Shown here one piece after another: positions 22,595 to 53,635 of a stretch of DNA of 64,000 nucleotides; within the stretch, counting starts at the first letter, position 1, and every line of letters starts with the position of its first letter. A program made the translations under genes and the position numbers. This DNA is from Patescibacteria group bacterium (GTDB lineage: Bacteria > Patescibacteriota > WWE3 > UBA101185 > UBA10185). Location of the stretch: the NCBI GenBank assembly GCA_018825365.1, contig JAHJEV010000003.1:387669-451668 (forward strand), read 5' to 3'. The notes under the pieces were generated by a model. It saw only the letters and a program-made list of their open reading frames with translations. It did not search any database and was not told the DNA's origin.

Positions 22595-22911
22595 AAAAGT
22601 ATTCCCGAAATAATTGCACCAAGAGTATCTACACCAAGATCAAAAATGCTGCAAGATCTACCGAGTATTGTTAACTGATGTAGCTCATCGAAAACCGCAT
22701 AAGATACCGTCATAACAATGGAAAGAGGTATGTCTTTCGTTGCTTTAAAAAAAGCAATGCAAAGAATTATGAAAAGTATAAAGTGACCTGATATCTCCGA
22801 GGGCTCATTCCCAACTATTGATCTGTTTACCGCCTCTCCATTAATCGAGGAGAGAGCGTAGATGAGAAGCATTACAAATATTGCAGGTATCCAGTTTCTT
22901 AAAATCTTCAC
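22540..22911 (-). CDS. VanZ-family membrane protein
   Basis: YAVFDELHQLTILGRSCSIFDLGVDTLG, characteristic of VanZ-like proteins. Confidence 0.55.
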   Translation of the reverse strand: MKILRNWIPAIFVMLLIYALSSINGEAVNRSIVGNEPSEISGHFILFIILCIAFFKATKDIPLSIVMTVSYAVFDELHQLTILGRSCSIFDLGVDTLGAIISGILLWKLLPTLPKKLKNLLLK

Positions 22912-24878: not shown

Positions 24879-24882
24879 ATAT

Positions 24883-25791
24883 TTAGTATTTCAAATACTT
24901 TTTGATTGCTGTTTTGCTTCCGAAGTATCCAAGCAAAAACCCGGATAAGAGGAGGATAAAAGCAAGAATTGTATTAAAAATTATCGGGTTTATAAAAAAT
25001 CCTGGGATAAAACCAATAGCCAAACCTTTCGAGAATATTCCCCATCTATCTATACCTACTCCCAAAAGTATGATTACACCAGAGGCCGCAGCTGCCGAAA
25101 CCATGCTAAAAAATACTCCTTCGTACATGAACGGGTCCCTAACATACGAATCGGAAGCACCCACAAGCTTCATTATTTCAAGCTCCTTTCCCCTAGCGTT
25201 AATAGATGTTCTTAATGCGGAAATAATAACCGAGTACGAAATCAGGAAAAATGAAACCACTAGAATAAAACCGACTATATAAACTGCCCTGCTGGTTGAA
25301 GCAAATCTTGAGACAACATCTTTGTAAAACCTAACCTCCTCAACCCCCTCCTGTGATTTATATTCATTTGTCAGCTTGTCCAAATTTCCGATGTTTTTGG
25401 CCTTCACTTCAAGACTGGCGGGCAAGATGCTTGCAGAAATTGATTCCAACAAAACCGGCTCATCCTTGTTTATCTCTTTGAAAATTCTTAAAGCCTCCTC
25501 TTTTGAAACGTAAGTTACAGACGCAACCCTGGCGTCATTCCCTATGTTTGCCTTCAAAGGCAGTATCTTGTCCTCACCAAAATCATCTTTGAAAAAAATT
25601 GTTATCTGCGCCTGATCTTCCAAGTATCTCAAAGCCGTCTGGGAGATTACAACGACATCTATGAAAATCCCCAGCAATAAAAAGGTAATTCCCATCAAGA
25701 GAAAGTTAGATACGCTCATTAATTTCTCTTTCTGAAGATGTCTTCGTAGATTTTCCCAAAATTTCGGCATTTTTGATGGTTTTTTAGACAC
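24883..25791 (-). CDS. ftsX: Cell division permease FtsX
   Basis: 4-TM FtsX topology. Start reassigned to GTG 25791 (AAGGAGGAaagtatcGTG), overlapping the ftsE stop by 8 nt. Confidence 0.8.
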   Translation of the reverse strand: MSKKPSKMPKFWENLRRHLQKEKLMSVSNFLLMGITFLLLGIFIDVVVISQTALRYLEDQAQITIFFKDDFGEDKILPLKANIGNDARVASVTYVSKEEALRIFKEINKDEPVLLESISASILPASLEVKAKNIGNLDKLTNEYKSQEGVEEVRFYKDVVSRFASTSRAVYIVGFILVVSFFLISYSVIISALRTSINARGKELEIMKLVGASDSYVRDPFMYEGVFFSMVSAAAASGVIILLGVGIDRWGIFSKGLAIGFIPGFFINPIIFNTILAFILLLSGFLLGYFGSKTAIKKYLKY

Positions 25792-26470
25792 GATACTTTC
25801 CTCCTTCTTGATCTGAAGTAATTTTACCTTCCTCAATCCTAATAACTCTTTTTTTGAGGGAGTCAACAATTCTTTCATCATGGGTTGCCATAATAACCGT
25901 AGTCCCAAGTGAATTAATCTTTTCTAAAATCTCAACTACTCCATCAGAGGAATCAGGATCAATCATTCCGGTTGCCTCATCGGCTACCAAAACATCCGGC
26001 TCGTGAGCCAAAGCTCTTGCAATTGCGACTCTTTGCTTTTCTCCACCGGAAAGCTGACTTGGAAAATAGTCTTTCTGATTTGTCAAACCTACCAAACTTA
26101 GAATGTTTGGGATAATATTTTTTATTTCCTCTTTATTAGTACCAACAACCTCCAAAGCCACAGCAACATTATCGTAAACAGTTTTTGAATCCAAAAGCTT
26201 GTAATCCTGGAAAACAACCCCGATTTTTCTTCTTAGATCAGGAACTTCCTCATGTGGAATATCCGAAACACTCTCGCCATTAAATTTAATTTCGCCGTCT
26301 GTTGGTCTTTCTTCTCCTATTAAAAGGCATACAATTGTTGATTTACCGGCTCCTGAAGGACCCACAATAAAAACGAATTCCCCACTATTAACATTGAACG
26401 AAACGCCATCCAAAACTTTTATGCCGGGGATATATTCCTTCGATACTTTCAAAAACTCAATCTGATGCAT
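25784..26470 (-). CDS. ftsE: Cell division ATP-binding protein FtsE
   Basis: GPSGAGKST Walker A, LSGGEKQRVAIARAL signature, Walker B. Confidence 0.9.
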   Translation of the reverse strand: MHQIEFLKVSKEYIPGIKVLDGVSFNVNSGEFVFIVGPSGAGKSTIVCLLIGEERPTDGEIKFNGESVSDIPHEEVPDLRRKIGVVFQDYKLLDSKTVYDNVAVALEVVGTNKEEIKNIIPNILSLVGLTNQKDYFPSQLSGGEKQRVAIARALAHEPDVLVADEATGMIDPDSSDGVVEILEKINSLGTTVIMATHDERIVDSLKKRVIRIEEGKITSDQEGGKYRV

Positions 26471-28629: not shown

Positions 28630-29013
28630 CTACATGAGTTGCTCGGCCCACCTGATTTTTTCTTCAGTTGCCATCAGCCAAAAGCCTTCTGGTAGTATGG
28701 GCCACACATCCACGTTATCGCCCCATTCAATACTGTGGTTGGTTGCGAATCGTCTCCAGGCCTTTGCGAGATAGATAGCCCATCGTCTTAGTCTATCTTG
28801 GCGTTCGGAAGATGTGCTTCCTACTGCAAAAATCTGCATGGCAGTCATGTTGCTTGTGCTGCTCAGTCTGATATGAAGCACAGCGACTTGCCCGTTGTTG
28901 ACATCACCAAGAGCATCAGCGGTTGCCTGTCGAAGAGCTGGACCAAGTTCGTCCATAAACTTATCGATAAGTTCGCTCGCTACCCCGGTAGTAAAAAGAA
29001 GAACATTTGGCAT
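28630..29013 (-). CDS. GC-rich hypothetical protein, possibly tautomerase-superfamily-like (Pro after initiator Met)
   Basis: 127 aa starting MPNV. ~50% GC against a ~36% background. Has its own SD (AAGGAG) and terminator. Confidence 0.45.
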   Translation of the reverse strand: MPNVLLFTTGVASELIDKFMDELGPALRQATADALGDVNNGQVAVLHIRLSSTSNMTAMQIFAVGSTSSERQDRLRRWAIYLAKAWRRFATNHSIEWGDNVDVWPILPEGFWLMATEEKIRWAEQLM

Positions 29014-33003: not shown

Positions 33004-33162
33004 ATGGCAAAAACATTTAGAACATACCAGCCTAAGAAAAGAAAAAGAGCCAAAACTCATGGCTTTAGAAAAAGGATGTCCACACCCGGTGGCAAAAATG
33101 TTATTAAAAGACGAATGGCAAAAGGTAGAAAGAAACTATCTGTTGTTTCAAAGTCAAAGTAG
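33004..33162 (+). CDS. rpmH: 50S ribosomal protein L34
   Basis: [25 protein letters not shown]... Not in the ORF track (below its length cutoff); hand-translated. Confidence 0.9.
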
Positions 33163-33179
33163 TTTCTGCTCAATTTACA

Positions 33180-33530
33180 ATGCTCAAAAAAGAAAATCGT
33201 CTCTCTTCCAATTTTGAATTTAACATAGCAAGAAAATATGGAACCCATGTCGAAGGAGATTTCTCACATATTTATTTTGTAACACCGAAAAATTACGAAG
33301 GACCGACAAAAGTTGGGGTTGTTGTTTCAAACAAGTTACATAAAAACGCGGTAGTTAGAAATAGAATTAAAAGATTATACAGAGAGGCAGTTAGGAATAG
33401 TTTTGATAAGATAAACAAAGGAAACCTGTGGGTCGCAATTCATCCGAAGTTTAACTCACAAGATAAGACTTATGAAGAAATTAATGCTGACTTTAATAAG
33501 ATTCTACAAAAAGCATCTTTCTCCAATTAA
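33180..33530 (+). CDS. rnpA: Ribonuclease P protein component
   Basis: KRLSSNFEF... and RNRIKRLYRE (RNR motif) directly after rpmH. Confidence 0.85.
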   Translation: MLKKENRLSSNFEFNIARKYGTHVEGDFSHIYFVTPKNYEGPTKVGVVVSNKLHKNAVVRNRIKRLYREAVRNSFDKINKGNLWVAIHPKFNSQDKTYEEINADFNKILQKASFSN

Positions 33531-33687
33531 TTTTGGGTTGGATATTTGTAGATACAAACCAAGCTGCGCCGATTACACATACCAAGCTATCGAAAAATAT
33601 GGGGCACTAAGGGGTGGTTGGATGGGTTTCAAAAGAGTGTTAGGATGTAATCCGTTTTCCAAAGGAGGCAACGATCCTGTAAAATAA
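33472..33687 (+). CDS. yidD: Membrane protein insertion efficiency factor YidD
   Basis: CRYKPSCADY...GALRGGWMGFKRVLGCNPFSKGGNDPV, classic YidD. Confidence 0.8.
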   Translation: MKKLMLTLIRFYKKHLSPINFGLDICRYKPSCADYTYQAIEKYGALRGGWMGFKRVLGCNPFSKGGNDPVK

Positions 33688-33702
33688 CAGAATCTAAAAA
33701 CT

Positions 33703-34476
33703 ATGTGGAATATCGTTCTAGTTAATCCAATATTAAACTTGCTAGTAGCCTTGTACAGAGGCGTTGGGAACCTTGGTATTGCCATAATTATTTTCACAAT
33801 TATTGTGAAGTTTGCAATGATTCCTTTAACAATCCCGTCAATAAAAATGGCAAAAAAGCAAAGGGACATCCAACCGGAACTTGACAAATTAAAAAAGAAA
33901 TTCAGTTACGACAAGAAAAAACTCGCTGAAGAGCAGATGCTTCTTTTCAAAAGACACGGAATAAATCCCACGTCCGGATGCATAACAACCATTATTACAT
34001 TTGTTTTCATGATTGCTATATACAACGTCATATCAATGTTTACTATGGCAAAGGATATCCAACTTATTAACGCCAGACTTTATTTCCCCTCATTTATATT
34101 TGGTGCGGGCGAGACAATTAACACATCATTTTTACACCTAAATCTTACAAAACCAGATCCTTTTATTATTGTTACTATTCTTGCAGTACTTACACAATTT
34201 ATTGCAACAAAAATGATGATGCCCTTCTCCCAAGTTGCCGATAAAGCAGTTAAAAAAACTCCCGGCCATGCCGACGACATAGCTCAAGCAATGCAAAAGC
34301 AAAACTTATACATAATGCCGATAATGTTTTTCGTATTCGGACTTACTCTACCCTCCGGTGTCATGCTTTACATTTTGTTCTCAACTATTTTCCAAATTGT
34401 TCAGACATACATGTTTTCAGGCTGGGGAGGATTAAAACCCTGGCTAATTAAATTAAAATTTTTTAAAAGGGAATGA
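33703..34476 (+). CDS. yidC: Membrane protein insertase YidC (short Oxa1-type)
   Basis: Conserved first TM and IPLTIPSIKMAKKQRDIQPE...LFKRHGINP core. Confidence 0.85.
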   Translation: MWNIVLVNPILNLLVALYRGVGNLGIAIIIFTIIVKFAMIPLTIPSIKMAKKQRDIQPELDKLKKKFSYDKKKLAEEQMLLFKRHGINPTSGCITTIITFVFMIAIYNVISMFTMAKDIQLINARLYFPSFIFGAGETINTSFLHLNLTKPDPFIIVTILAVLTQFIATKMMMPFSQVADKAVKKTPGHADDIAQAMQKQNLYIMPIMFFVFGLTLPSGVMLYILFSTIFQIVQTYMFSGWGGLKPWLIKLKFFKRE

Positions 34477-34958
34477 AGCATATGGATATTAAAGAGGTAA
34501 TCGAAACAAATCTTAAGAAAATATTTTCTCTTATCGGTATAAAACCCGAGTATTCAATCGAATCGGACGAAGAAGGTGTGTACAATGTGAAAATCTCAGG
34601 TGACAACCTAAATTTCCTAATCGGATTTAGGGGACAGTCTCTTGAGGCTCTTCAAACTCTTTTAAAATTAATAGTTTTTAGAAAAACCGAACAACAAATA
34701 GTTCTTTCAGTAGACATAAACAGCTACAAGAATCAAAAAAGTGAAAGGTTGCAGGAAATGGCAAGAGGTTTTATAGATAAAGTTAGATTTTTTGAGAAAG
34801 AAATTGAACTTCCAGTTATGAACCCCTGGGAAAGAAGACAAATTCACGTGTTTGTTGCTGAATACGAAGACGTAATTTCAGAAAGCACCGGAGAAGGTGA
34901 AAGTAGAAGGGTAGTTTTAAAGCCTAACAAGGTTGGTTCCAAAAAGAAGGAAAAATGA
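34473..34958 (+). CDS. jag: Jag/KhpB RNA-binding protein (KH + R3H domains)
   Basis: GFRGQSLEALQ (KH-like) and ELPVMNPWERRQIHVFV (R3H). Follows yidC. Confidence 0.75.
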   Translation: MKHMDIKEVIETNLKKIFSLIGIKPEYSIESDEEGVYNVKISGDNLNFLIGFRGQSLEALQTLLKLIVFRKTEQQIVLSVDINSYKNQKSERLQEMARGFIDKVRFFEKEIELPVMNPWERRQIHVFVAEYEDVISESTGEGESRRVVLKPNKVGSKKKEK

Positions 34959-36061
34959 AATTTTCTTGCTTACAGGAAAACTTATCAAAGGGACTTCAAA
35001 CAGTAATGCATGCCGTTCCTGCTAAAAGTTCGTTGCCGATTTTATCCAATGTTTTGATCTCAACTGATAACGGAAGACTTAAACTTGCGTCCACAAATCT
35101 GGAAACCGCAATCAGCACTTTTGTTGGTGCTTCAGTAGATGAGGAAGGATCAACCACAATACCCGCAAGGCTCCTGAAAGATTTTATAACTAACCTTTCC
35201 CCGGGAAAAATTAACGCACAGGTTAAGGATGAGATTCTCATCATCACCTCAAAAAACACTAAATCAAAATTTAATGGGAGTAGCGCCCACGACTTCCCGG
35301 AATTACCGACATTTCCAAAGAAATCAAAAGGTTTGGAACTTGATCCAACAACGTTAAACGAAGCTATGTCACTGGTTGCTTTTGCATCCGGAATCGACTC
35401 CAGCAGACCTATTTTTACCGGTATTTCTGTCACATTCTCAAAAGGTAAATTAACCCTTGCCGCAACAGACGGTTTCAGACTCTCAGAAAAAATAGTTACA
35501 ATTAAATCCAATGCCGAGGATTTTTCTGTAGTTCTTCCAGCAAAAACACTTTCTGAAGTCTCTAAAATATTTTCGTCATCTTCAGAACCAATTCAATTTG
35601 CTCTAAACCAAGATGAGAACCTAGCATTATTCAAATCTGAGGATACTTTAATCGCAACAAGAATACTTGATGGCCAATACCCCGATTACAAGAAAATAAT
35701 CCCAACGGAACATGTCGTTAAAGCCGATTTTAATACGATAGATTTCTTCGAGGCTGTGAGGCTTACAGATATTTTTGCCAAAGAGGGAAACAATACTATA
35801 AAGGTTCGATTTGACCCCGAAGGAAAGATAAAAATCACATCATTATCCGAAGAAACAGGTCAACACGAGAGCGTTTTCTCTGCCGAAATAGAGGGAGAGC
35901 TTGTTGAAATCGCATTTAACTCGAAATACCTGTTAGATTTTTTAACAAACATCAAATCTGAAAAGATTGAATTTCTGTCTAATGGAAATGTATCACCATG
36001 TTTGTTCGAACCTGACAAGCAAAAGAACTTCATACATATAATAATGCCGATGCAAATTTAA
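34955..36061 (+). CDS. dnaN: DNA polymerase III beta sliding clamp
   Basis: MKFSCLQENLSKGLQTV...LPILSNVLI N-terminus and three-domain length. Confidence 0.85.
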   Translation: MKFSCLQENLSKGLQTVMHAVPAKSSLPILSNVLISTDNGRLKLASTNLETAISTFVGASVDEEGSTTIPARLLKDFITNLSPGKINAQVKDEILIITSKNTKSKFNGSSAHDFPELPTFPKKSKGLELDPTTLNEAMSLVAFASGIDSSRPIFTGISVTFSKGKLTLAATDGFRLSEKIVTIKSNAEDFSVVLPAKTLSEVSKIFSSSSEPIQFALNQDENLALFKSEDTLIATRILDGQYPDYKKIIPTEHVVKADFNTIDFFEAVRLTDIFAKEGNNTIKVRFDPEGKIKITSLSEETGQHESVFSAEIEGELVEIAFNSKYLLDFLTNIKSEKIEFLSNGNVSPCLFEPDKQKNFIHIIMPMQI

Positions 36062-36075
36062 CTTTCTGAGGGATT

Positions 36076-38466
36076 TTATCTTAAATCCAAGTCTCCGCTT
36101 TTTCGCAGTGGGTTCGTTTGTGGTGTGTTTGGTTTTTGAGTTGTGTTGTTTTGAGGAATTGGTGGTTTAAGTTGAGTAGAAACCGGATTTGGCTTTTGCG
36201 GCTGGGTCCTTTGTTGATTTTGATTTGTTTTTTGTTGCGGTCTTTGTCTTCTCATCTCCTCAACAGAATCCAATATATCTCCGGCCGAAGGCATTTTGTT
36301 AATATAATCCTCATCGTCGTTATCTACCTTTTTAAGGTTTACCGTTTTGTTAACAACCATAGGTTTTTGTTCAACTTTAGGAGGAGGTGTCTGTTGAATT
36401 TGCGGTTTGGGTTGCGGAGTAGTTTGGACAACAGGCTTTACCTCCGGTTTTCCTTCTGGCCTAACCTCCGGTTTCACAACCGGAAGCGCTATTTCTTTTT
36501 TAGGCTCCTCAGGAAGCTTTGGTTTTACGATAAATTCTGGTTTCACCACACCACTTTTATCAAAAGTTGTATACGTATCCATACTTTCCGGAGCCTTGTA
36601 AGGCTTATACACGGGTCTTTGTGTACCTTGGTTTGGAAGCTTTGCTTGCTGAGTTTCTCTTTCTTTCCTAAGCCTTAAAATCTCCTCAGGATTTGTAGTA
36701 ATCAATTTATTTTCCGCATCAGAGGCCATAACTTTTATAGCTACGTGGTTTGCGCCCGCAAAAAATAGGCCTTCTCCAACTCCTGCCCCAAGAAGAAATC
36801 TTTTTTCTCCCTCTGATAAGTAAAAGGTCTCCACAACTTTATCTATTGCGGCAGGGTGCTGTTTTAAAAGCATTTGAATTGACGAGTTTGTAACAATAGC
36901 TTTCCCATATTCGGAAGTTAAGAAATCATCAACATCTTGAGAAATAGTTGTAAGACCTAAATAATATTTTCTAGCTCTTTTTGCTATTCCATAAATAAAC
37001 CTCGCGCTATCCGGGTTTTGCATCAGATACCAAGCCTCCTCGACAATAAGTATTCTTTTTCTTAAATCTCTTCGAATAGTTGTCCAAACAAAATCCAAAA
37101 TCATGTAAAAAGCAATTGGTCTTAAAGCTTCTTCAAGATTCTTGGTTGAGAAAACAGTCATTCTGCTGGTCAGATTAATATTTGATTGAGAATCAAATAT
37201 TCCGGTCATAGATCCTTTGATGAATCTTTCAAGCCTTTCGGCCATGCCTCTTGCTTCTGATTCCTCTGCCCCGAGAAGCACTTTATACAAATCTTCCATT
37301 ACCGGAGGCTCTTTCGTGGCCTGCGTTTCGGGATCAGCAGTAATTCCCTTTATTCTATAAGTTTCTATTAAAGCCCTATCCAACAAAGCCTCTTCTGTGG
37401 CGTTTAGACCCCCAAGCATTAATTTCAAAAGAGTAATAAGCGAAATAAGTTTTTGCCCAAGCTCGTTTTCTCCTTCAACCGCAATGCCTGATAAATCAAA
37501 TGGGTTTATTTTATTTTTTGAGTTAGCAGAAAAATCAATATAATTCCCCCCGACCACAGAACACAATTCTCGATACTCCTCCTCTGGATCGATAATCAGT
37601 ATCTCTGCTCCGAAAATTAGCATTCTGAGTGCTTCCAACTTTACGTAGTAAGATTTTCCTGCACCGGATTTCGCGAAAACAACTTCATTTGCATTCTCAA
37701 GGGAGAACCTGTCAAAAATAACCAAAGACCCATTGTGTCTGTTGATTCCATACATTACCCCCTCCTCCATTGTTAGATCCGAAGATGTAAATGGAAAGGT
37801 AGTCGCTAAGCTCGTCGTGTCCATGTTTCTCGTGATGAGAAGCTTATCGCAACCAGTTGGGACGGAGGACTGAAAGGCATCTTCCATTTGTAAGGAAGCC
37901 GTCTTTGAAATAAGCAGGAGCGAGGCCAGTGTTGATTCTAATTTGGCGGAAATATTGTCTAATTCCTCAAGGGAAGCGGCGGGAATTGTTATATAAAAGG
38001 AAAACTGGAAATATTTTTCTACTCCCTTTACCAACTGTTCCTGCAAGGCATTTGCGTCCTCAAGAGCGGCCTGAACGACGGGGTCTGTAATCTTTCCCTT
38101 CTCCTGATTGGACATCGTCGTCGCCTCAAGCTCCGTTATCTTTCTTCTTAAATCATCAAGTATAACTTTTGATTTGACCGGGTAATAAAACATGGACATC
38201 AAAAGTGTATGTTCAAAATTAATTATTGGCGAAAGCCAATTGGCTCCAACAAATCTCGGATACCCTGAAACGAACATGGTTCTGTAATACATGTTTCCAA
38301 TTTTTAAGTTGTTGAAGTCAACTTCAATAGCAGAAGGTGCAATAATATCTCTAACATTTAACATTCCCTCAGCGAGAATCTGAGGAGGAGTCTTCTCCCC
38401 GGGAACTTCTTTTTGATTCGAAGCGCTGGATTTTTTATTAAATATCGTAAAAATATTAAATGCCAT
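36076..38466 (-). CDS. VirB4/TraC-like type IV secretion ATPase with ~180-aa Pro/Gln-rich C-terminal tail
   Basis: FAKSGAGKSYYVK Walker A, ILIVEEAW Walker B region, VirB4-like length. C-terminus is low-complexity (KPEVRPEGKPEVKP...TQPQKPNP). Confidence 0.8.
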   Translation of the reverse strand: MAFNIFTIFNKKSSASNQKEVPGEKTPPQILAEGMLNVRDIIAPSAIEVDFNNLKIGNMYYRTMFVSGYPRFVGANWLSPIINFEHTLLMSMFYYPVKSKVILDDLRRKITELEATTMSNQEKGKITDPVVQAALEDANALQEQLVKGVEKYFQFSFYITIPAASLEELDNISAKLESTLASLLLISKTASLQMEDAFQSSVPTGCDKLLITRNMDTTSLATTFPFTSSDLTMEEGVMYGINRHNGSLVIFDRFSLENANEVVFAKSGAGKSYYVKLEALRMLIFGAEILIIDPEEEYRELCSVVGGNYIDFSANSKNKINPFDLSGIAVEGENELGQKLISLITLLKLMLGGLNATEEALLDRALIETYRIKGITADPETQATKEPPVMEDLYKVLLGAEESEARGMAERLERFIKGSMTGIFDSQSNINLTSRMTVFSTKNLEEALRPIAFYMILDFVWTTIRRDLRKRILIVEEAWYLMQNPDSARFIYGIAKRARKYYLGLTTISQDVDDFLTSEYGKAIVTNSSIQMLLKQHPAAIDKVVETFYLSEGEKRFLLGAGVGEGLFFAGANHVAIKVMASDAENKLITTNPEEILRLRKERETQQAKLPNQGTQRPVYKPYKAPESMDTYTTFDKSGVVKPEFIVKPKLPEEPKKEIALPVVKPEVRPEGKPEVKPVVQTTPQPKPQIQQTPPPKVEQKPMVVNKTVNLKKVDNDDEDYINKMPSAGDILDSVEEMRRQRPQQKTNQNQQRTQPQKPNPVSTQLKPPIPQNNTTQKPNTPQTNPLRKSGDLDLR

Positions 38467-38475
38467 GTTTTAGTC

Positions 38476-39177
38476 TCACTCCTCAATAATCGCTGGATTA
38501 ACAATCGCAGTTTTATAATCGTCTATATTTGTACGAATTCTCTGCCCATGAACAGTGCTTGGATTGTAGATATCGAAATAAAGTTCGACCAACTCTTGAG
38601 TAGTCAGTTGCTTAGTTTTTATACCAATTCTATTGAATTCCTTTATTATGTGATCAACCTTCGGTCCTATTTCTATCTTTCCAGATTGCAGGGCTTTTTC
38701 GACATCGACATTTATTCTCTTGTTGTGGGATCCGGTTAATCTCATCACCCAATCAAAAGCTTTTGATCCTTCCTGACCAACTATCGGTGAGCCTGAGGGA
38801 ACAACAACGTAAAACTTTTTATCCAAAACTTCATTAACTTTTATTACTTCCTGAACGAATTTTCTATATGCCTCAGCTTGGTGTTTAAGTAAAGGATCCG
38901 TAAGTTTGCTTTCAACCTTCCTAACTTTGTCAACATATTTTGAAATATCAAGTTTTCTTGACCTAATTACGATCTGAATAGGAAAAGTTATCGAATTTAG
39001 AAGCATGGAAAATGCCGCTATTATGGCATCTTGCTCAATCTCAGATAAAAGATCAAAATTTACTGCCGTAGTTTGAACAACAGAGCATATAATTCCGTTT
39101 TTGAGAATTACGTAATTATCTTTAATATCTTGAATGTCTAAATGATCCTGAGTTGTAAATTTATTCTGGGCGGGCAT
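38476..39177 (-). CDS. Hypothetical protein in VirB4-like operon
   Basis: 233-aa soluble ORF immediately upstream of and co-directional with the VirB4-like gene. Confidence 0.4.
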   Translation of the reverse strand: MPAQNKFTTQDHLDIQDIKDNYVILKNGIICSVVQTTAVNFDLLSEIEQDAIIAAFSMLLNSITFPIQIVIRSRKLDISKYVDKVRKVESKLTDPLLKHQAEAYRKFVQEVIKVNEVLDKKFYVVVPSGSPIVGQEGSKAFDWVMRLTGSHNKRINVDVEKALQSGKIEIGPKVDHIIKEFNRIGIKTKQLTTQELVELYFDIYNPSTVHGQRIRTNIDDYKTAIVNPAIIEE

Positions 39178-39179
39178 TG

Positions 39180-40787
39180 TTATCTACCAATCATTTCTAA
39201 AGGAGGCAATACTTCTCCTTTAACTTCTACAGGAATTATATCAAACGTTAGGTTTGTTTTATTGGACGGACTTATCTCAACTGTGTAAGTTCCATTTGTA
39301 AGGGGGGTTGAGATGACGAATTGCCCCATCGTATTAGTTTTTAGGGCTCTTACTGCCTCTCCCCTTTTGTTTTTTACTATGATTAGAAAATCACTTAGAA
39401 ACTTATCTTTAGAATCCTTGACAATACCACTTACAACATTAGGGACTTTCGTTAAAGGTTGAACATAACTATACTGAGAAACACCCCCCGATGTAGTGGT
39501 TTTTTGTTCTTCTAATTTCTGTCTAAGTTCCTCAACCTGTTTTCTTAACTCCGTGTAGCTTGAGGCCAACTTTTCTTTCTGAACTCCCAATCGTTTTAAA
39601 AGCTGTTCTTGGTTTGAAGTTTCCAAAGACATAGATTTTCCTCTTTGTATTTGAAGCGTAAGCCTCTCAATTTCTTTGGCCAGATCTTCATTTTGAGTCC
39701 TTAACTTACTAACAGTTTCCTCTGCAACTTCCCCAACCTGCTGCTCGTTATCAACCTTAATTTCAGTTGGTGAACTAGCACTAAACGAACGGGCAACTTT
39801 ACTTTTAGCAACCACCAAACCCTCTTCTTGCTTAATTTTGTCTAAGAGTTCCTTCAGTTTCTCAGCCTTCACCTTCACATCTTCCTCATCTTGTAAGTCC
39901 TGGGACGTACTCAAAACTCTTTCGCCTCTAATTGGAAGTATCAATTCCCCTTGGGACGGGGTAAGGTTTGTAAATTTTCTACCAGAGTGCATATCCGGAG
40001 TCATGGGCTCGTAAGTGTAAAGACCGCGCTGTGGTGTAAATCTTTCCGGAAGAATAAATGTATCTTTTTGTACCGCGGGCGTAATCTCAGTAACTTCTTT
40101 TACTCCTGCTTTTTCTTGCTTTAGAGGCTCTTCCTTCCCCTCGACAACCACACCTACATTCTTTACCTCTTTTGGTTTTTCTTGTATTAACGGGGTTACG
40201 GAGGATTCGGGCAGAGTTTCTACCACAATAGTAGAAGGCTCCTCTACCAACACCCCAACCTGCGAGCTCCTGGAAGCTGTGGGGGCACTTGGGTAGGCTA
40301 GCCTTACTTTCATTAAATACTCTCTTTCGGGAATATCAAGAGGATCCTCTTTTTCTTGTTCGTCTTGAATTTTCAGATACTCTTCAAGTTTTCTTCTGCT
40401 TGAGGTAGGTGCCAATGTGATCATTTCTTGTCTTACCACGGCAAGACTGTCGTAAATGAATGCCGTGGGGAGCTGGGGTTTTTTCATCCAAATTCTTTGG
40501 GTGGGGTGGTTTACCGCCCTAACAAAGTTTACTATCCACTCATCAAGTCCCCTCTCCTCAATAGGTACAAACGCCAAACCCAAAGCCAAAAGTGCAAGGA
40601 AAACAACAAACGGCCACTTAAAAATCCCTATTACTACAACACTAGCAAGATACGCAGCCAATCCAAAGGTAAAAAGATAAGCGAATTGCCGCATTGTTAG
40701 ATCGCCAATTAGCTTAAATTGAACATCCATTACATTTTGCGGTACTGGGTGTTGTTTATTTGACTGAGGCATATCGGGCATGGGCAT
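39180..40787 (-). CDS. Membrane protein (2 TM) with coiled-coil and C-terminal carboxypeptidase-regulatory-like beta-sandwich
   Basis: N-terminal hairpin TM pair, central Glu/Lys-rich coiled-coil. C-terminus IVKNKRGEAVRALKTN...TYTVEISP resembles a CarboxypepD_reg fold. Confidence 0.45.
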   Translation of the reverse strand: MPMPDMPQSNKQHPVPQNVMDVQFKLIGDLTMRQFAYLFTFGLAAYLASVVVIGIFKWPFVVFLALLALGLAFVPIEERGLDEWIVNFVRAVNHPTQRIWMKKPQLPTAFIYDSLAVVRQEMITLAPTSSRRKLEEYLKIQDEQEKEDPLDIPEREYLMKVRLAYPSAPTASRSSQVGVLVEEPSTIVVETLPESSVTPLIQEKPKEVKNVGVVVEGKEEPLKQEKAGVKEVTEITPAVQKDTFILPERFTPQRGLYTYEPMTPDMHSGRKFTNLTPSQGELILPIRGERVLSTSQDLQDEEDVKVKAEKLKELLDKIKQEEGLVVAKSKVARSFSASSPTEIKVDNEQQVGEVAEETVSKLRTQNEDLAKEIERLTLQIQRGKSMSLETSNQEQLLKRLGVQKEKLASSYTELRKQVEELRQKLEEQKTTTSGGVSQYSYVQPLTKVPNVVSGIVKDSKDKFLSDFLIIVKNKRGEAVRALKTNTMGQFVISTPLTNGTYTVEISPSNKTNLTFDIIPVEVKGEVLPPLEMIGR

Positions 40788-40843
40788 ATTAACTTAGATT
40801 ATATGGCCCAGTGGGTAATTCGGCAAGATAAGGTGAATTCAGA

Positions 40844-43800
40844 CTACCTCAAAAGAACAAGGAAACTCAAATCCTTCTGGAAAATCCCCCTGCTTTCCAA
40901 CAGCTTACCACTTTCGCTTAAGGAACTGCTTTTTGCCTCCACAATGGTACCAAAGGGTGGGCTAAAGGAAAAAACATAAGCGTCAGATCCGGTTCCTGCC
41001 TGTTTTTGCCATACGAGACTATATTGATTCTGATCCTTAGTAATTGAAAGGTTTACCGGAAGATCGTAACTTAAAATAAGCCTAACACTCTCCCCGGGAT
41101 TTATCTTGAAACTCGTCTCAAAGGAGTTATAAGCTCCCTCCTTAGAAACTGTAATCCCCTTAAAAATATCGCTTTCTACACCACCGTTATAAGAAATCTT
41201 TGCTCCCGTAAGTTTAGAGCCGTTTTGGGTTATTGCCCTGACATAATCTGTGTAGGGGCCCCCCGGCCAAGCGTTATCATCGGCAGTGTGTTTATAATCA
41301 AGGTATAAATTAGCTCTAAGCAACCCGTCCCTGGTCAACGCACTTACTTCATAAGTCATTTTGTTCTCAACATAATAATTTGCTTTCGTACCGCCAAGAT
41401 TGGCATTTACTATAAAAAGATAATCTCCGGGTGTATCTACCAAGCTTCCATCCCAGCGTTTTTCCTTCAAAAGTTTGTCCACAACGTTATTAGTGAAATA
41501 AATCATTAAGTGTCTTTCATCAAGGGACTTTCCTATCTGAGAAAGGAGTGGGGAGTAACTCTCACTTTTCAAAGCAAACAATCTCTCCATAAGTTTGCTT
41601 CCAAGTATAGTAAGGAATGATTTTTTGTCAGAAGACCCTTCTTTGTAGTCAAACCCGCTGTAGTACTGAGCTCTCTCATAAAAATTTTCTGCGCTAATGT
41701 CTTCGTTGTAAGATGCAAGATACAAAGGTCCTGTGACTTTTAAGAGACTTTTTACAAAATCCAAATCAACGGCAAGATAACCATTTATTGTTTCTCCGGT
41801 GATTTTGAAGTAGAGATCGTCAAAAGCTTTGGTAGATTTTGGAAAATCTGGATCCCAATTTGAATTCCTTAAATAAAGCACGTTCTCTTTTAGGAAGTTC
41901 TTAATCTGCTCTGGGGGCGTAACAGCTATTTTTCTCAAATCTATCTGTCCGTCGGGGTTGTAAATATCATCAATAACGAAATTTTTTATTTTTCCCTTAT
42001 CCAATGTTAAAACACCATACGAACCTATAAAGCCACCCGTCGGTCTCATTTCACTTGAGTTTTGAAACCAAAAAACATATTTTTTCTCGCTGTCTATTCC
42101 CAATATCTGGGGTAATTCGGAAATTAGTGTATAGCCAGAGTCAAACAACTCTCTTGCAAGAGCGGTGGCTTTTTCGTATTCAGATAGCTTTGTTATTATT
42201 TTTTCCGGGAATAAGCTTTTGTCAACCCCTGAAAAATCCGCCTCGGCTAAACTCAGGTGATTTTTTGCTTCGGAAATCCCAAATTTTGCCTCAATAAAAG
42301 AATCAGCATTTAAAACCTCCTGGGTATCCGGCCTTAAAACGCCAAGCGTGTTTTCTAAAGGTTTAATTGCAACAGAGGCAGAATACAAAGATCGGGAAAA
42401 AGATTCCGTAGAGCCTAAAAGTTTATCGTAAGAAGAAAGATAGTTGGTTTTCTTCGTTATTGAAAACACCCACCCAACTCTTCTAAGTGATTTTCTAGCA
42501 CTATTAAAACCGTCCGCTGCCAAAAGCGCCTCTTTTTTTAATGACAGCGAGTCCATTTTGGATACCGCAACTTTAGCTTTTTCAAGCGACAACACAGCCC
42601 TCTGAGAACTGAACAAAAAGCTTAGTACCGGAAAAGCTATAAACACAAGTGCCGCAGCAACAATAACGGCAAGTACACTGGGTACATATCCGAAATCTCC
42701 TTTTAATCTGTATTTAAAACTTCTTAACTTGTCTTCCAAACCACTGAAGATGTTTTTCTTGCCTATTTGGGTTACTTCATTTTTGACTTCCTTTCTCAAC
42801 ACCTTAATTGGCGACTCTTTGTACTTTCTAAAAAAATTCACAGGTTCTTTCAATTTCTTCTCTGATGCCTTCTCTTTTTCCCGAACTATTCCTTGAAGAG
42901 AAGTCACCTTTTCCTTGCTTTCTTTTGTACTTTCTTTGATTTTTTCCTCAACAAGTTTTATCGGTTTAAAAGCATGGGTATTTACTGAGTAACCAAAATC
43001 CTCAAGTGTTCTTATAACTCCCTCTTTTAGTCCAACTTTCGACTTCCAACCCAAATCTTTCAGGTTAAATGTATCCGGGGATTTCAACTGCTGTTTAAAA
43101 TCTGTAATTCCCGGTTTAAACTGAACAGAAAGCTTTGCGTCAGCTAAACTTTTAATCATGTAGGCGATCTCTAAAGCTGAGACCGGGTCTTTTGGTATAA
43201 GAGAGTAGATATTTCCTTTTGTTTTCGAATTAAATTGAGCTTTCACTAACCCGGAAACTACATCTGAAACGTAAAGATAGTACTCTTTCTCCGTTCCCTC
43301 CCCATATATCTCAATCGAAGATCCATCCAATACATTTTTTATAAATCCACCCAAAAATCCGCTAGATGATAGATCCATTCTTGGACCATAGACTTCCGGG
43401 ATTCTAACAATCCTCACATCAGCACCGTGAGTTTTAAAATATTCCCAAACAACCGCCTCTGCAAAACGTTTGGCTTCAATTAAACTAAATTTGTTTTCTT
43501 CGCTGGGTGTGATCCCAAAGTATTTATCAAGATAAAGTTGGGACATCCTTCCTTGATACACATCAATTGTTGAGACCAAAAGGAATTTTGCAGATGATCT
43601 TCTTGCCAAATCCAAAAGATTCTTGGTTCCCAAAGAGTTTGTAAAAAGAGATTCGAGATTTAAATAATCCTTGCTGTACAAATATTCCTCTACTCCGGCA
43701 AGGTGAAAAATATAATCCACACTTTCAATTTCTGGCGGGATTCCCTCATTAATATCTACATCGTACAAAGCAAATTTTTTATTGGATAAAAGATCCTTAA

Positions 43801-43960
43801 CGTGTATTTTTTTGCCGGTTTGGAAGTTATCCAAAACGATAACTCTGGCGTTGTTATCAAGCAAAGCCTCTGCCAAATGGGATCCTATAAATCCAGCTCC
43901 ACCAGAGATAAGTATGGTGGGAACCAGAGCAGATTTTGTTATTACTTGTTTTTTTGGCAT
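40844..43960 (-). CDS. Fusion protein: N-terminal SDR/UDP-sugar decarboxylase-like domain + TM helix + ~600-aa extracytoplasmic domain of unknown function
   Basis: ILISGGAGFIGSHLAEAL Rossmann motif. Expected YxxxK region reads IEAKRFAE (no Tyr). TM around residue 430. Long C-terminal domain without recognisable motifs. Confidence 0.6.
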   Translation of the reverse strand: MPKKQVITKSALVPTILISGGAGFIGSHLAEALLDNNARVIVLDNFQTGKKIHVKDLLSNKKFALYDVDINEGIPPEIESVDYIFHLAGVEEYLYSKDYLNLESLFTNSLGTKNLLDLARRSSAKFLLVSTIDVYQGRMSQLYLDKYFGITPSEENKFSLIEAKRFAEAVVWEYFKTHGADVRIVRIPEVYGPRMDLSSSGFLGGFIKNVLDGSSIEIYGEGTEKEYYLYVSDVVSGLVKAQFNSKTKGNIYSLIPKDPVSALEIAYMIKSLADAKLSVQFKPGITDFKQQLKSPDTFNLKDLGWKSKVGLKEGVIRTLEDFGYSVNTHAFKPIKLVEEKIKESTKESKEKVTSLQGIVREKEKASEKKLKEPVNFFRKYKESPIKVLRKEVKNEVTQIGKKNIFSGLEDKLRSFKYRLKGDFGYVPSVLAVIVAAALVFIAFPVLSFLFSSQRAVLSLEKAKVAVSKMDSLSLKKEALLAADGFNSARKSLRRVGWVFSITKKTNYLSSYDKLLGSTESFSRSLYSASVAIKPLENTLGVLRPDTQEVLNADSFIEAKFGISEAKNHLSLAEADFSGVDKSLFPEKIITKLSEYEKATALARELFDSGYTLISELPQILGIDSEKKYVFWFQNSSEMRPTGGFIGSYGVLTLDKGKIKNFVIDDIYNPDGQIDLRKIAVTPPEQIKNFLKENVLYLRNSNWDPDFPKSTKAFDDLYFKITGETINGYLAVDLDFVKSLLKVTGPLYLASYNEDISAENFYERAQYYSGFDYKEGSSDKKSFLTILGSKLMERLFALKSESYSPLLSQIGKSLDERHLMIYFTNNVVDKLLKEKRWDGSLVDTPGDYLFIVNANLGGTKANYYVENKMTYEVSALTRDGLLRANLYLDYKHTADDNAWPGGPYTDYVRAITQNGSKLTGAKISYNGGVESDIFKGITVSKEGAYNSFETSFKINPGESVRLILSYDLPVNLSITKDQNQYSLVWQKQAGTGSDAYVFSFSPPFGTIVEAKSSSLSESGKLLESRGIFQKDLSFLVLLR

Positions 43961-53056: not shown

Positions 53057-53635
53057 ATGTTATCTAAAGTACTAGTCAAACTCATAGATCGAGCAATCGT
53101 ACCGGCCATTTTGCTTCTTGCCACAAGAGTAGTTTCTATTGTATTGATAAGTAGATATTTAGGTCTCCCCGTAAAAATCTCCAAGTCTGGTTTTGTATTT
53201 GAATCCTATGCAGATTTTGTTAAGGTGAACTCCTACTCAACACTGGCAATGATCGTTATTTTGATTCTGGGACTTATTTATATCTTACTAAAGTCCTTGG
53301 CATTCCACGATAGCCACATTAAGCCCTCCCTTTCAGCAAAAGTGTTTAGTCTTAAAATTCAACATTTAATTCAAGGCTCGTTTCACCTTTATTCCGAAGC
53401 AGCAATTTGGCTTTCCTATGCTTATCTTTTACTTCTCTTCTCGGGAATAATGCTTGTTTCGAAACTTCTTTATAATTGGGTTTTTTATATGGCTGCCGGT
53501 GTGACTTTAGTGTCCACAATTCTTTTCATACTTGATGTAGAAGAGGAGATAAAAATAAAAGGGTTGGATAAAGGCGAAAGTGAATACGAGTACGATGAGG
53601 ATAAAGAGTTATTATGTAAGGAGGAACTTGAATGA
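53057..53635 (+). CDS. Hypothetical membrane protein
   Basis: 192 aa, 4 hydrophobic helices, acidic C-terminus. Confidence 0.35.
   Translation: MLSKVLVKLIDRAIVPAILLLATRVVSIVLISRYLGLPVKISKSGFVFESYADFVKVNSYSTLAMIVILILGLIYILLKSLAFHDSHIKPSLSAKVFSLKIQHLIQGSFHLYSEAAIWLSYAYLLLLFSGIMLVSKLLYNWVFYMAAGVTLVSTILFILDVEEEIKIKGLDKGESEYEYDEDKELLCKEELE

What the first reader, a model, noticed from the sequence alone, without database searches (positions are those of the whole stretch)
36076..40787. Minimal VirB4-like ATPase operon with Pro/Gln-rich tail, convergent on dnaN, lacking coupling protein and relaxase
Three co-directional genes: a 2-TM, coiled-coil protein with a C-terminal beta-sandwich (535 aa); a 233-aa soluble protein; and a VirB4-like ATPase whose last ~180 aa are low-complexity Pro/Gln/Lys-rich. 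No VirD4, VirB6 or relaxase is visible within 5 kb, and the ATPase stop is 15 nt from the dnaN stop. This could be a reduced secretion or DNA-uptake apparatus rather than a conjugation system, possibly relevant to an episymbiotic lifestyle.
Basis: partly seen in the sequence, partly recalled or inferred. Interest (0 to 1): 0.6.

Follow-up and report, generated by a model that had tools for sequence, protein, structure and literature searches.

The report
Patescibacterial type IV secretion core genes
Three adjacent genes in a WWE3 (Patescibacteria) chromosome encode the membrane anchor and the two-piece VirB4 motor of a type IV secretion system already published as widespread, relaxase-free and needed for growth on host bacteria in this phylum, so this is a lineage variant of a known system, not a new apparatus.

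Summary
Three co-directional minus-strand genes (535, 233 and 796 aa) lie at the stated coordinates, and 14 nt separate the last stop codon from that of convergent dnaN.

- **535-aa protein:** a PrgI/VirB3-type two-helix membrane anchor, extended by a disordered linker, a coiled coil and a CnaB/transthyretin-like beta-sandwich.
- **233-aa protein:** TrsD-like. It is the detached N-terminal domain of VirB4.
- **796-aa protein:** a CD1110-type VirB4 ATPase lacking that domain, with a disordered tail of about 196 aa.

The homologs that carry source names place the organism in candidate division WWE3. The cassette is conserved across the fetched WWE3 and Microgenomatia loci. It occurs in at least two chromosomal contexts, so the dnaN adjacency is incidental.

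This matches the published Patescibacteria type IV secretion system (PMC12102498; PMC10633639): TrsD and PrgI beside virB4, no relaxase, near dnaN/rnpA, essential in Southlakia epibionticum.

I found three details in none of the papers I read:
- The VirB4 tail carries conserved short motifs.
- The disordered tail sits on VirB4 or on TrsD, never both (36, 17 and 0 of 72 loci).
- No channel, hydrolase or pilin gene was found in the WWE3 loci or anywhere in this window.

Verdict: new member of a known kind, modest interest.

The parts
39180..40787 (-). PrgI/VirB3-like membrane anchor with a long C-terminal extension ('PrgI-long', 535 aa)
   Evidence: Pfam PrgI matches aa 14-98, 31.9 bits against a gathering score of 27. 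The AlphaFold2 model gives the domain layout. 328 close homologs, mostly carrying PF12666 plus PF13620. 1,993 cluster representatives at E<=1e-3. It lies directly upstream of TrsD in nearly all loci with enough flanking DNA.
40494..40748 (-). PrgI domain (aa 14-98), including the two-helix membrane hairpin (aa 32-51 and 57-73, nt 40569-40694)
40278..40562 (-). Highly conserved helical region after the hairpin (aa 76-170). It is the inferred docking surface for TrsD/VirB4.
   Evidence: This stretch holds many invariant columns in the 56-sequence alignment. Helices at 81-93, 115-144 and 154-164. The docking role is an inference from R388 VirB3-VirB4 structures.
39909..40274 (-). Disordered, variable linker (aa 172-293) that contains a conserved peptide, PMTPDMHSGRKF..GELILPIRGERVL (aa 261-296, nt 39900-40007)
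   Evidence: pLDDT below 50. Invariant P264, H267, G269, R270, F272, P277, L284, P285 and G288. BLAST detects it only in WWE3 loci.
39495..39905 (-). Coiled-coil region (aa 295-431)
   Evidence: Helices at 295-322, 347-385 and 391-431, with pLDDT about 81-91 over the last two and in the core of the first.
39183..39455 (-). C-terminal CnaB/transthyretin-like (CarboxypepD_reg) beta-sandwich (aa 445-535)
   Evidence: Pfam CarboxypepD_reg E=4.5e-6, below the gathering score. PF13620 is precomputed on most homologs. pLDDT about 91. Foldseek against PDB: UafA 3is1 E=4.7e-5, carboxypeptidase D, CnaB2 8bdw with target-normalised TM-score 0.68-0.70, SdrD and Gram-positive pilins.
38476..39177 (-). TrsD/TraC-like protein (233 aa), the detached N-terminal domain of VirB4
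   Evidence: NCBIfam: VirB4_plasma model positions 100-233, E=5.9e-13; TrsD/TraD E=9.9e-9. Pfam PF26593 TraC-like is precomputed on all listed homologs, which are 231-235 aa in all but three and 69-100% identical. The top 14 Foldseek PDB hits are all TrwK/VirB4 of R388. It aligns to aa 22-211 of an unsplit 831-aa Bacillus mycoides VirB4.
36667..38466 (-). VirB4 ATPase core (aa 1-600). Walker A is AKSGAGKS (aa 265-272, nt 37651-37674). Walker B is ILIVEE (aa 472-477, nt 37036-37053).
   Evidence: NCBIfam conju_CD1110, 373.3 bits against a cutoff of 325, model positions 183-734 of 752. Pfam P-loop_TraG, AAA_10 and DUF87. PDB 4AG5 E=8e-51. The core is 80-100% identical in the 30 of 120 homologs whose core identity was printed. 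Walker motifs.
36079..36666 (-). Disordered Pro/Lys/Gln-rich VirB4 tail (aa 601-796) with conserved short motifs: YKPY (620-623), YTTFDKSG (632-639), PSAGDILDSV (726-735) and C-terminal GDLDL (791-795)
   Evidence: Composition and charge-hydropathy test. Tail length is 23-343 aa (median about 200) in 120 homologs. Motif counts in 110 tails: 88, 77, 91 and 43, against about 0-3 in shuffled tails. Coordinates.
40798..40826 (-). Promoter-like site (TTGCCG, 17 nt spacer, TATAAT) in the 56-nt gap upstream of the first gene. This is a candidate only.
   Evidence: Consensus scan. The number of such sites in the region is not above the shuffle expectation, so the evidence is weak.

Best explanation
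The three genes encode the cytoplasmic-membrane energizing core of the Patescibacteria-type type IV secretion system (T4SS). This is a chromosomal, vertically inherited descendant of the conjugation machinery of monoderm bacteria (class MPF-FATA). It has lost the DNA-processing parts.

**How I think it works**
- The PrgI/VirB3-like hairpin sits in the membrane.
- Its conserved post-hairpin helices recruit a VirB4 motor that is made from two polypeptides. TrsD supplies the N-terminal, VirB3-binding domain. The 796-aa protein supplies the rest of the N-terminal domain and the P-loop ATPase domain.
- ATP hydrolysis by the assembled, presumably hexameric, motor powers assembly of an envelope structure, transfer of macromolecules between the epibiont and its host cell, or both.
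- The channel, cell-wall hydrolase and pilin components are encoded elsewhere in the genome or are too divergent to recognise.
- The disordered VirB4 tail and the coiled-coil/beta-sandwich arm of the anchor are lineage-specific cytoplasmic appendages. They probably act as docking elements.

**Shown here**
- Family identities of all three proteins.
- The split of VirB4 into two polypeptides.
- Conservation and mobility of the cassette.
- Absence of recognisable conjugation genes in the window.

**Inferred**
- Complex formation between the three proteins.
- Cytoplasmic location of the anchor's arm.
- A role in host interaction, taken from Tn-seq in Southlakia epibionticum.
- Substrate and direction of transfer, both unknown.
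For: **Family identities**
- VirB4: conju_CD1110 above the curated cutoff; next best are the Mycoplasma ICE VirB4 and the TraC and VirB4_CagE models; 4AG5 E=8e-51.
- The best annotated plasmid relatives are Bacillota and Actinomycetota CD1110-type VirB4s at 30-38% identity.
- PrgI is above the Pfam gathering score.
- TrsD-like.

**Split VirB4**
- TrsD and the ATPase map to consecutive, non-overlapping parts of three full-length VirB4 models.
- Joined artificially, they align as one stretch to TIGR00929 positions 19-724 of 792. Scores rise from 99.7 to 111.5 bits for TIGR00929 and from 259 to 302 bits for VirB4_plasma.
- On an unsplit 831-aa Bacillus mycoides VirB4, TrsD covers aa 22-211 and the ATPase covers aa 242-822.
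- The two profiles share no similarity with each other (hhalign probability 0.9%), so TrsD is a complement of this VirB4, not a duplicate of part of it.
- A Pontibacillus plasmid has the same split: a 274-aa TrsD-like gene (E=2.5e-29) directly before a 621-aa VirB4.

**Conservation**
- 8,000 or more VirB4 homologs at E<=1e-20. Those that carry a taxon name are WWE3 or Patescibacteria.
- The same three-gene order is found in all 59 of 83 related loci that hold all three genes, in WWE3 and Microgenomatia.
- Identical ori-proximal synteny in other WWE3 genomes.
- The cassette is intact in a second chromosomal context.

**Not a mobile element**
- GC content is 0.38-0.41, inside the window's range of 0.345-0.414.
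- No relaxase, coupling-protein or integrase family in any scanned ORF; the unscanned ORFs read as housekeeping genes.

**Literature**
- PMC12102498 reports exactly this pattern across the phylum: TrsD is the commonest partner of virB4, PrgI/VirB3 is adjacent, relaxases are nearly absent, and dnaN/dnaA/rnpA/rpmH lie nearby.
- PMC10633639 shows by Tn-seq that the T4SS cluster of S. epibionticum is essential in co-culture and lacks a recognisable coupling protein and relaxase.
Against: - No VirB6-like channel, VirB8-like protein, VirB1-like hydrolase or VirB2-like pilin array was found in the 64-kb window or within 8 kb of the cassette in any WWE3 locus. A complete machine is therefore assumed, not shown.
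- Nothing has been tested in WWE3. The only genetics comes from a different class, Saccharimonadia.
- I did not compute a VirB4 phylogeny, so placement in the published 'Patescibacteria clade' rests on best hits.
- The TrsD match to the curated NCBIfam model is far below its cutoff (35 bits against 200).
- Walker B reads hhhhEE rather than hhhhDE in all 120 homologs. This is probably tolerated, but activity is untested.
- Both AlphaFold2 models are of moderate quality overall (mean pLDDT 64 and 68).
Confidence: 0.8

Rival explanations
1. A truly minimal, self-sufficient three-protein machine. On this reading WWE3 has lost the classical channel, hydrolase and pilins, and the anchor with its long arm plus the split VirB4 do the job alone, possibly something other than secretion.
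For: - The cassette keeps exactly these three genes in two different chromosomal contexts.
- No accessory T4SS gene lies within 8 kb in any WWE3 locus or anywhere in this window.
- The extra appendages (tail, coiled coil, beta-sandwich) could compensate for lost partners.
Against: - A two-helix hairpin cannot form a translocation channel.
- The sister class Microgenomatia and the closest Bacillota relative do carry membrane hydrolases, a large membrane protein and a pilin-like gene next to the same cassette.
- PMC12102498 notes that components are often dispersed and that VirB6 is hard to detect in some classes.
- Only 64 kb of a genome likely to be about 0.5-1 Mb was seen.
Confidence: 0.1
2. 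A DNA-uptake machine analogous to archaeal Ced or Helicobacter ComB.
For: - The VirB4 family powers such importers.
- Patescibacteria lack nucleotide synthesis.
- A 2026 preprint links VirB4 to macromolecule acquisition from hosts.
Against: - CedB scores 29 bits against a cutoff of 700, and CedD 18 bits against 600.
- No ComB-type or Ced partners were found.
- In S. epibionticum, competence requires comEC, and a comEC mutant is viable while the T4SS is essential. The T4SS role is therefore not transformation.
Confidence: 0.07
3. An ordinary conjugative element or ICE, or its decaying remnant.
For: The closest non-Patescibacteria relatives are VirB4 genes of plasmids of Gram-positive bacteria.
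Against: - The VirB4 core is 80-100% identical, and TrsD 69-100% identical, across the WWE3 homologs listed.
- TrsD length is nearly fixed, and there are no frameshifts.
- The locus sits in conserved core synteny (rpmH, rnpA, yidC, jag, dnaN on one side, groEL on the other).
- Base composition is ordinary.
- No relaxase, coupling protein or integrase was found.
Confidence: 0.03

Closest known systems
Patescibacteria-clade T4SS (Quinonero-Coronel et al. 2025, PMC12102498), including the essential SEML1_0006-0019 cluster of Southlakia epibionticum (Wang et al. 2023, PMC10633639)
   Same: - VirB4 of MPF-FATA affinity.
- TrsD and PrgI/VirB3 encoded next to it.
- No relaxase and no coupling protein at the locus.
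- Chromosomal, close to dnaN, rnpA and rpmH.
   Different: - Here no VirB2-like pilin array, VirB6 or hydrolase lies at or near the locus, whereas the Saccharimonadia cluster holds about 14 genes including six pilins.
- The VirB4 carries a disordered tail of about 200 aa with conserved motifs.
- The anchor is 535 aa, with a coiled coil and a beta-sandwich.
- 'WWE3' appears neither in the main text nor in the held part of that paper's supplement.
pGO1/pSK41-type staphylococcal Trs system (TrsC, TrsD, TrsE), the MPF-FATA subclass that has TrsD
   Same: A VirB3-like protein, a TrsD protein related to the VirB4 N-terminus, and VirB4. The homology statements come from PMC12102498. That the three genes are adjacent in that order, and that TrsE is the VirB4, is my own knowledge and was not checked here.
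   Different: - The Trs system is a plasmid-borne conjugation system with a relaxase, the TrsK coupling protein and the TrsG hydrolase.
- The match to the curated TrsD model is weak (35 bits against a cutoff of 200).
Unnamed cluster on the Pontibacillus sp. ALD_SL1 megaplasmid NZ_CP062975.1, the best annotated relative in PLSDB
   Same: - CD1110-family VirB4, 37.8% identical and also short (621 aa).
- Directly preceded by a 274-aa TrsD-like protein (E=2.5e-29) and a 116-aa protein whose N-terminal hydrophobic stretch suggests a small membrane protein.
- The plasmid is typed as non-mobilizable.
   Different: - The Pontibacillus cluster also has a pilin-like gene (Mbov_0395 family), a 779-aa protein and a 1,050-aa M23 endopeptidase in the same cluster.
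- Its small protein has no long arm, and its VirB4 has no tail.
R388 Trw inner-membrane complex (TrwM/VirB3 with TrwK/VirB4; PDB 7O41, 8RTB, 8RTD)
   Same: - The TrsD model matches TrwK/VirB4 chains and nothing else at E below 0.1.
- The anchor has the VirB3-type hairpin.
   Different: - R388 is a diderm conjugative system in which VirB4 is one polypeptide.
- It also has VirB6, VirB8 and VirB10, a coupling protein and a relaxase.

Membership tests
VirB4/TraC-family T4SS ATPase (NCBIfam conju_CD1110; MPF-FATA type) | Whole-protein score above the curated family cutoff | tested here: met
   373.3 bits against a cutoff of 325.
VirB4/TraC-family T4SS ATPase (NCBIfam conju_CD1110; MPF-FATA type) | C-terminal P-loop domain homologous to a solved VirB4, with Walker A and Walker B motifs | tested here: met
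   4AG5 E=8e-51 over aa 229-590. Walker A is AKSGAGKS. Walker B is ILIVEEAW, with Glu in place of the usual Asp in all 120 homologs.
VirB4/TraC-family T4SS ATPase (NCBIfam conju_CD1110; MPF-FATA type) | Complete N-terminal domain on the same polypeptide | tested here: not met
   Model positions 1-182 of CD1110 and 1-213 of TIGR00929 are missing from the 796-aa protein. The upstream 233-aa gene supplies them.
VirB4/TraC-family T4SS ATPase (NCBIfam conju_CD1110; MPF-FATA type) | ATP hydrolysis and hexamer formation | not testable with these tools
   Needs biochemistry.
PrgI / VirB3 family | Pfam PrgI above the gathering score, with a two-helix membrane hairpin | tested here: met
   31.9 bits against 27. 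Helices at 32-51 and 57-73.
PrgI / VirB3 family | Small protein of about 100-130 aa | tested here: not met
   It is 535 aa. About 365 aa of linker, coiled coil and beta-sandwich follow the 170-aa conserved N-terminal region. This architecture is shared by WWE3 and Microgenomatia homologs, which range from about 270 to 800 aa.
PrgI / VirB3 family | Encoded next to virB4 | tested here: met
TrsD/TraD (TraC-like, PF26593) family | Curated NCBIfam TrsD cutoff | tested here: not met
   35.3 bits against 200, E=9.9e-9. It is a remote relative only.
TrsD/TraD (TraC-like, PF26593) family | Homology and fold of the VirB4 N-terminal domain, encoded directly upstream of virB4 | tested here: met
   VirB4_plasma model positions 100-233, E=5.9e-13. 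PF26593 on all listed homologs. Foldseek hits to TrwK. Alignment to aa 22-211 of an unsplit VirB4.
Patescibacteria-type T4SS (PMC12102498) | VirB4 with TrsD and VirB3/PrgI adjacent, no relaxase, chromosomal near dnaN/rnpA | tested here: met
   compared with the description.
Patescibacteria-type T4SS (PMC12102498) | VirB4 falls inside the monophyletic Patescibacteria clade | not tested
   No tree was built. Among the 120 best homologs, all that carry a taxon name are WWE3 or Patescibacteria, apart from one record labelled Saccharimonadales.
Patescibacteria-type T4SS (PMC12102498) | VirB2-like pilin genes or arrays, VirB6 and a cell-wall hydrolase associated with virB4 (frequent but not universal) | tested here: not met
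   None were found in the window or within 8 kb in WWE3 loci. Whether they lie elsewhere in the genome is unknown.
Conjugative T4SS / ICE | Relaxase, type IV coupling protein and integration module | tested here: not met
   No such family in any scanned ORF of the window. The locus sits in conserved core synteny.
Ced/Ted DNA-import systems | CedB- or CedD-type ATPase above the family cutoff | tested here: not met
   CedB 29.4 bits against 700. CedD 18.4 bits against 600.

The most novel reading that the evidence does not exclude
The disordered, motif-bearing tail and the coiled-coil/beta-sandwich arm of the anchor together form a built-in cytoplasmic substrate-recruitment platform. This platform would replace the missing type IV coupling protein, much as the C-terminal tails of DotL and TraD recruit adaptors and substrates. 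The tail sits on VirB4 in WWE3 and on TrsD in part of Microgenomatia. A variant of this reading is that the anchor's hairpin is inverted, so that its coiled coil and CnaB-like domain form an extracellular stalk and adhesin that touches the host.
Probability: 0.15. Interest if true: 0.6.

Novelty: new member of a known kind. Interest (0 to 1): 0.3.

Why it matters
The T4SS of Patescibacteria is one of the few machines shown to be essential for the epibiotic lifestyle of this very large, mostly uncultured group, and what it moves is unknown. This locus adds no new kind of system, but it gives three things:
- A clean WWE3 example in which the core is reduced to a portable three-gene cassette.
- Direct evidence that TrsD plus the short VirB4 equal one canonical VirB4.
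- Three testable handles for finding partners or substrates of a coupling-protein-less T4SS: conserved short motifs in a disordered tail, a tail that sits on either half of the split motor, and a long arm on VirB3.

Tried and rejected
**Searches that found nothing**
- Sequence search of TrsD against PDB: nothing significant (best E=0.25). The fold search worked instead.
- hhalign of the TrsD profile against the VirB4 profile, to test for an internal duplication: no similarity.
- tblastn of the genes that follow virB4 in Microgenomatia (membrane M23/CHAP hydrolases and single-pass proteins) against the window: only chance-level hits, none to these families (the two best, E=2e-5 and 0.003, are short stretches in unrelated genes).
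- Pfam and NCBIfam on 23 unannotated or small ORFs of the window, looking for VirB6, VirB2, coupling protein or relaxase: none.
- Search for arrays of small two-helix ORFs: only one isolated 91-aa ORF.
- Tandem Repeats Finder on the tail: no DNA repeats, so the low complexity is at the protein level only.
- Rfam on the whole window: tRNAs only.

**Weak or inconclusive results**
- Promoter and terminator scan: counts not above chance. One plausibly placed promoter-like site.
- Positive-inside rule for the anchor's topology: charges are balanced on both sides, so it is uninformative.
- Search for WWE3 in the key paper and its held supplement: no mention, but the stored supplement is truncated, so coverage of this class is unclear.

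**Ideas considered and dropped**
- A functional link to dnaN: the cassette also occurs away from dnaN.
- The Epimerase/DUF4012 gene as a system component: its adjacency is not kept outside most WWE3 loci.

Full report
**1. Observation**

They are separated by 2 nt and 9 nt. A GAGGAG Shine-Dalgarno-like sequence for the third gene overlaps the end of the second. dnaN (34955..36061, plus strand; all three beta-clamp Pfam domains) converges on the ATPase gene with 14 nt between the stops. GC content of the region (0.38-0.41) lies within the window's range of 0.345-0.414.

**2. What the three proteins are**

*The 796-aa protein is a genuine VirB4.*
- It passes the curated NCBIfam cutoff for the CD1110 family of VirB4-like conjugal transfer ATPases (373 bits against 325). 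Its next best models are the Mycoplasma ICE VirB4, TraC-F-type and VirB4_CagE.
- It carries Pfam P-loop_TraG, AAA_10 and DUF87.
- It matches the solved VirB4 C-terminal domain of Thermoanaerobacter (4AG5) at E=8e-51.
- FtsK/HerA-type assignments and the Ced importer ATPases are far below their cutoffs.
- Walker A is AKSGAGKS. Walker B is ILIVEEAW, with Glu-Glu in all 120 homologs examined.

*The 535-aa protein begins with a PrgI (VirB3-like) domain above Pfam's gathering score.* AlphaFold2, run with a 56-sequence alignment, gives this layout:
- a helical hairpin at aa 32-51 and 57-73;
- conserved helices up to aa 164;
- a disordered stretch at aa 172-293;
- long helices at 295-322, 347-385 and 391-431;
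- a confident beta-sandwich at aa 445-535.

The best structural matches of the beta-sandwich are CnaB, transthyretin-like and carboxypeptidase-regulatory domains: UafA, CnaB2, SdrD and Gram-positive pilins.

*The 233-aa protein is TrsD-like.*
- It matches positions 100-233 of a full-length VirB4 model (E=5.9e-13) and the TrsD/TraD family weakly.
- All listed homologs carry Pfam PF26593, 'TraC-like'.
- The only structural matches of its moderate-quality model at E below 0.1 are 14 chains of TrwK/VirB4 from the R388 T4SS.

**3. TrsD plus the ATPase equal one VirB4**
- The two proteins map to consecutive, non-overlapping parts of three independent full-length VirB4 models.
- An artificial concatenation aligns as a single stretch to TIGR00929 positions 19-724 of 792, with higher scores than the ATPase alone.
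- On an unsplit 831-aa VirB4 from a Bacillus mycoides plasmid, TrsD covers aa 22-211 and the ATPase covers aa 242-822.
- The TrsD and VirB4 profiles do not resemble each other. TrsD is therefore the missing piece, not a copy.
- The split is stable. TrsD homologs are 231-235 aa in all but three of the 120 listed and 69-100% identical.
- The closest annotated non-Patescibacteria relative, a Pontibacillus megaplasmid, has the same split.

**4. Organism and conservation**
- Among the homologs that carry a source name, most are 'candidate division WWE3' or 'Patescibacteria group'.
- Other WWE3 genomes share the whole neighbourhood: groEL, a 290-aa gene, RNase H, a Wzz-like gene, Epimerase/DUF4012, anchor, TrsD and VirB4, then the convergent block dnaN, jag, yidC, yidD, rnpA and rpmH.
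- I fetched 80 species-level loci from WWE3 and Microgenomatia (Woese-, Curtiss-, Beckwith-, Shapiro-, Gottesman-bacteria and others).
- In these 80 plus three fetched earlier, the order [PrgI domain + beta-sandwich protein], TrsD, VirB4 is found in all 59 loci that hold all three genes. In a few, the anchor is called as two adjacent ORFs.
- In a WWE3 subclade the same cassette follows a 415-aa gene that looks like an aminoacyl-tRNA synthetase and precedes a possible holA (both guessed from their N-terminal sequences only), with no dnaN or DUF4012 nearby. The cassette is therefore the conserved unit, and the convergence on dnaN is contextual.
- The anchor family has 1,993 representatives at 50% clustering.

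**5. Relation to the literature**

This is the system described by Quinonero-Coronel et al. 2025 (PMC12102498):
- VirB4 is present in 2,417 of 3,035 Patescibacteria genomes and forms a clade nested in MPF-FATA.
- PrgI/VirB3 is usually adjacent.
- Relaxases are almost absent.
- dnaN, dnaA, rnpA and rpmH are among the commonest neighbours.

Wang et al. 2023 (PMC10633639) showed by Tn-seq that the T4SS cluster of Southlakia epibionticum is essential in co-culture. They noted the lack of recognisable coupling and relaxase proteins. A 2025 review restates this and adds that comEC, not the T4SS, accounts for competence.

**6. What is specific here**

*(a) Gene content of the locus.*
- In WWE3 the locus holds only the three core genes.
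- In many Microgenomatia loci, 1-5 kb of co-directional genes lie between virB4 and dnaN. They encode large membrane proteins ending in M23 or CHAP peptidoglycan hydrolase domains, and single-pass proteins.
- The Pontibacillus cluster adds a pilin-like gene, a 779-aa protein and an M23 enzyme.
- None of these has a detectable counterpart in this window.

*(b) The VirB4 tail.*
- The tail is a WWE3-wide feature. In 120 homologs it ranges from 23 to 343 aa (median about 200) with variable P/Q/K/E/S/T-rich composition. The core was 80-100% identical in the 30 homologs whose values were printed.
- It is not featureless. Conserved motifs occur in 88, 77, 91 and 43 of 110 tails, against about 0-3 in shuffled tails. 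The sequences are related, so these counts show conservation, not independent events. The motifs are:
  - YKPY;
  - Y-x-T-F-D-x-x-G;
  - P-S-A-x-D-I-L-x-S-V;
  - a C-terminal G-x-[ILF]-x-L.

*(c) The tail sits on one half of the motor or the other.*

| VirB4 tail of 60 aa or more | TrsD extension of 60 aa or more | Loci (of 72 with both genes complete) |
|---|---|---|
| yes | no | 36 |
| no | yes | 17 |
| no | no | 19 |
| yes | yes | 0 |

- The TrsD extensions are P/Q/S/T-rich. Most carry a short amphipathic helix-like motif near the C-terminal end, for example ALKNLQEATAKAA.
- Spearman correlation is -0.82 and Fisher p=1.3e-6.
- These statistics are not corrected for phylogeny, so they are descriptive only.
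- A tail that can sit on either polypeptide fits the view that the two form one complex.

*(d) The long arm on the VirB3-like anchor.* None of the papers I read mentions it.

**7. Topology and mechanism (inference)**
- VirB3 proteins have both termini in the cytoplasm, which is my own knowledge. VirB3-VirB4 fusions exist (cited in PMC12102498), which requires a cytoplasmic VirB3 C-terminus.
- The anchor has only the one hairpin.
- The 95 residues after it are the most conserved part of the protein. This fits binding to the highly conserved cytoplasmic TrsD/VirB4.
- I therefore place the linker, coiled coil and beta-sandwich in the cytoplasm, together with the VirB4 tail. I read them as docking elements.
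- The opposite topology, an external stalk with a CnaB-like tip as in Gram-positive adhesins, cannot be excluded. The charge distribution is uninformative.
- The substrate and direction of transport remain unknown.

**8. Verdict**

The locus is a new (WWE3) member of a known, recently published kind of system. Interest is modest. It rests on the split-motor demonstration, the tail motifs with their either/or placement, and the absence of any recognisable channel component near the cassette in WWE3.

Noticed in passing
window 33004-36061: dnaN directly follows rpmH, rnpA, yidD, yidC and jag on the plus strand. No dnaA-like gene is present anywhere in the 64-kb window. The same arrangement is seen in other WWE3 genomes.
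   Followed up: partly
window 40844-43960 (-): A 1,038-aa fusion of an NAD-dependent sugar epimerase/dehydratase with DUF4012 lies 56 nt upstream of the cassette on the same strand. The adjacency is kept in most WWE3 loci, but not in Beckwithbacteria (L076, L077) or in the WWE3 subclade L016, L017 and L021. It is probably synteny rather than function.
   Followed up: partly
window 36082-36096 (-), VirB4 aa 791-795, and homologous tails: Many VirB4 tails end in a conserved G-x-[ILF]-x-L motif (GDLDLR here). It loosely recalls the beta-clamp-binding pentapeptide QLxLF but lacks the Gln and the aromatic residue. The gene lies next to dnaN, but I did not test this and consider it unlikely.
   Followed up: no
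window 37036-37053 (-), VirB4 aa 472-477: Walker B reads ILIVEE, with Glu where the canonical Asp sits. The Glu-Glu pair is conserved in all 120 homologs examined.
   Followed up: partly
L036, L040, L047, L056, L059, L066, L068, L070, L073 (Microgenomatia loci), between virB4 and dnaN: Co-directional genes follow virB4. They encode large Gly-rich membrane proteins ending in Peptidase_M23 or CHAP domains, and single-pass proteins of 135-365 aa with no family match. They are likely the hydrolase and envelope parts of the same system, and they are absent from WWE3 loci.
   Followed up: partly
window 23637-26470 (-): An M23 peptidase with a PcsB-like coiled coil lies next to ftsX and ftsE. This is a divisome-type hydrolase module, not a T4SS VirB1 analogue.
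   Followed up: partly
window 30-770, 1241-1972, 6483-7601, 8317-9369, 9640-10134, 22841-23572, 28630-29013, 53057-53635, 62169-63062: Nine ORFs of 127-372 aa have no Pfam or NCBIfam match. They include a polytopic 372-aa membrane protein at 6483-7601. GC content is slightly raised at 2-4 kb and 28-30 kb (0.41).
   Followed up: partly
window 21475-21750 (-): An isolated 91-aa ORF has two hydrophobic helices and no family match. It is not part of an array.
   Followed up: partly
record titles of L006, L009, L013, L036, L040, L053, L055 and others: Many public MAG records carrying this Patescibacteria cassette are titled 'uncultured Gammaproteobacteria', 'Candidatus Saccharibacteria', 'Bathyarchaeia' or 'Clostridia'. 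These look like mislabelled submissions. NCBI taxonomy also places candidate division WWE3 outside the 'Patescibacteria group'.
   Followed up: no
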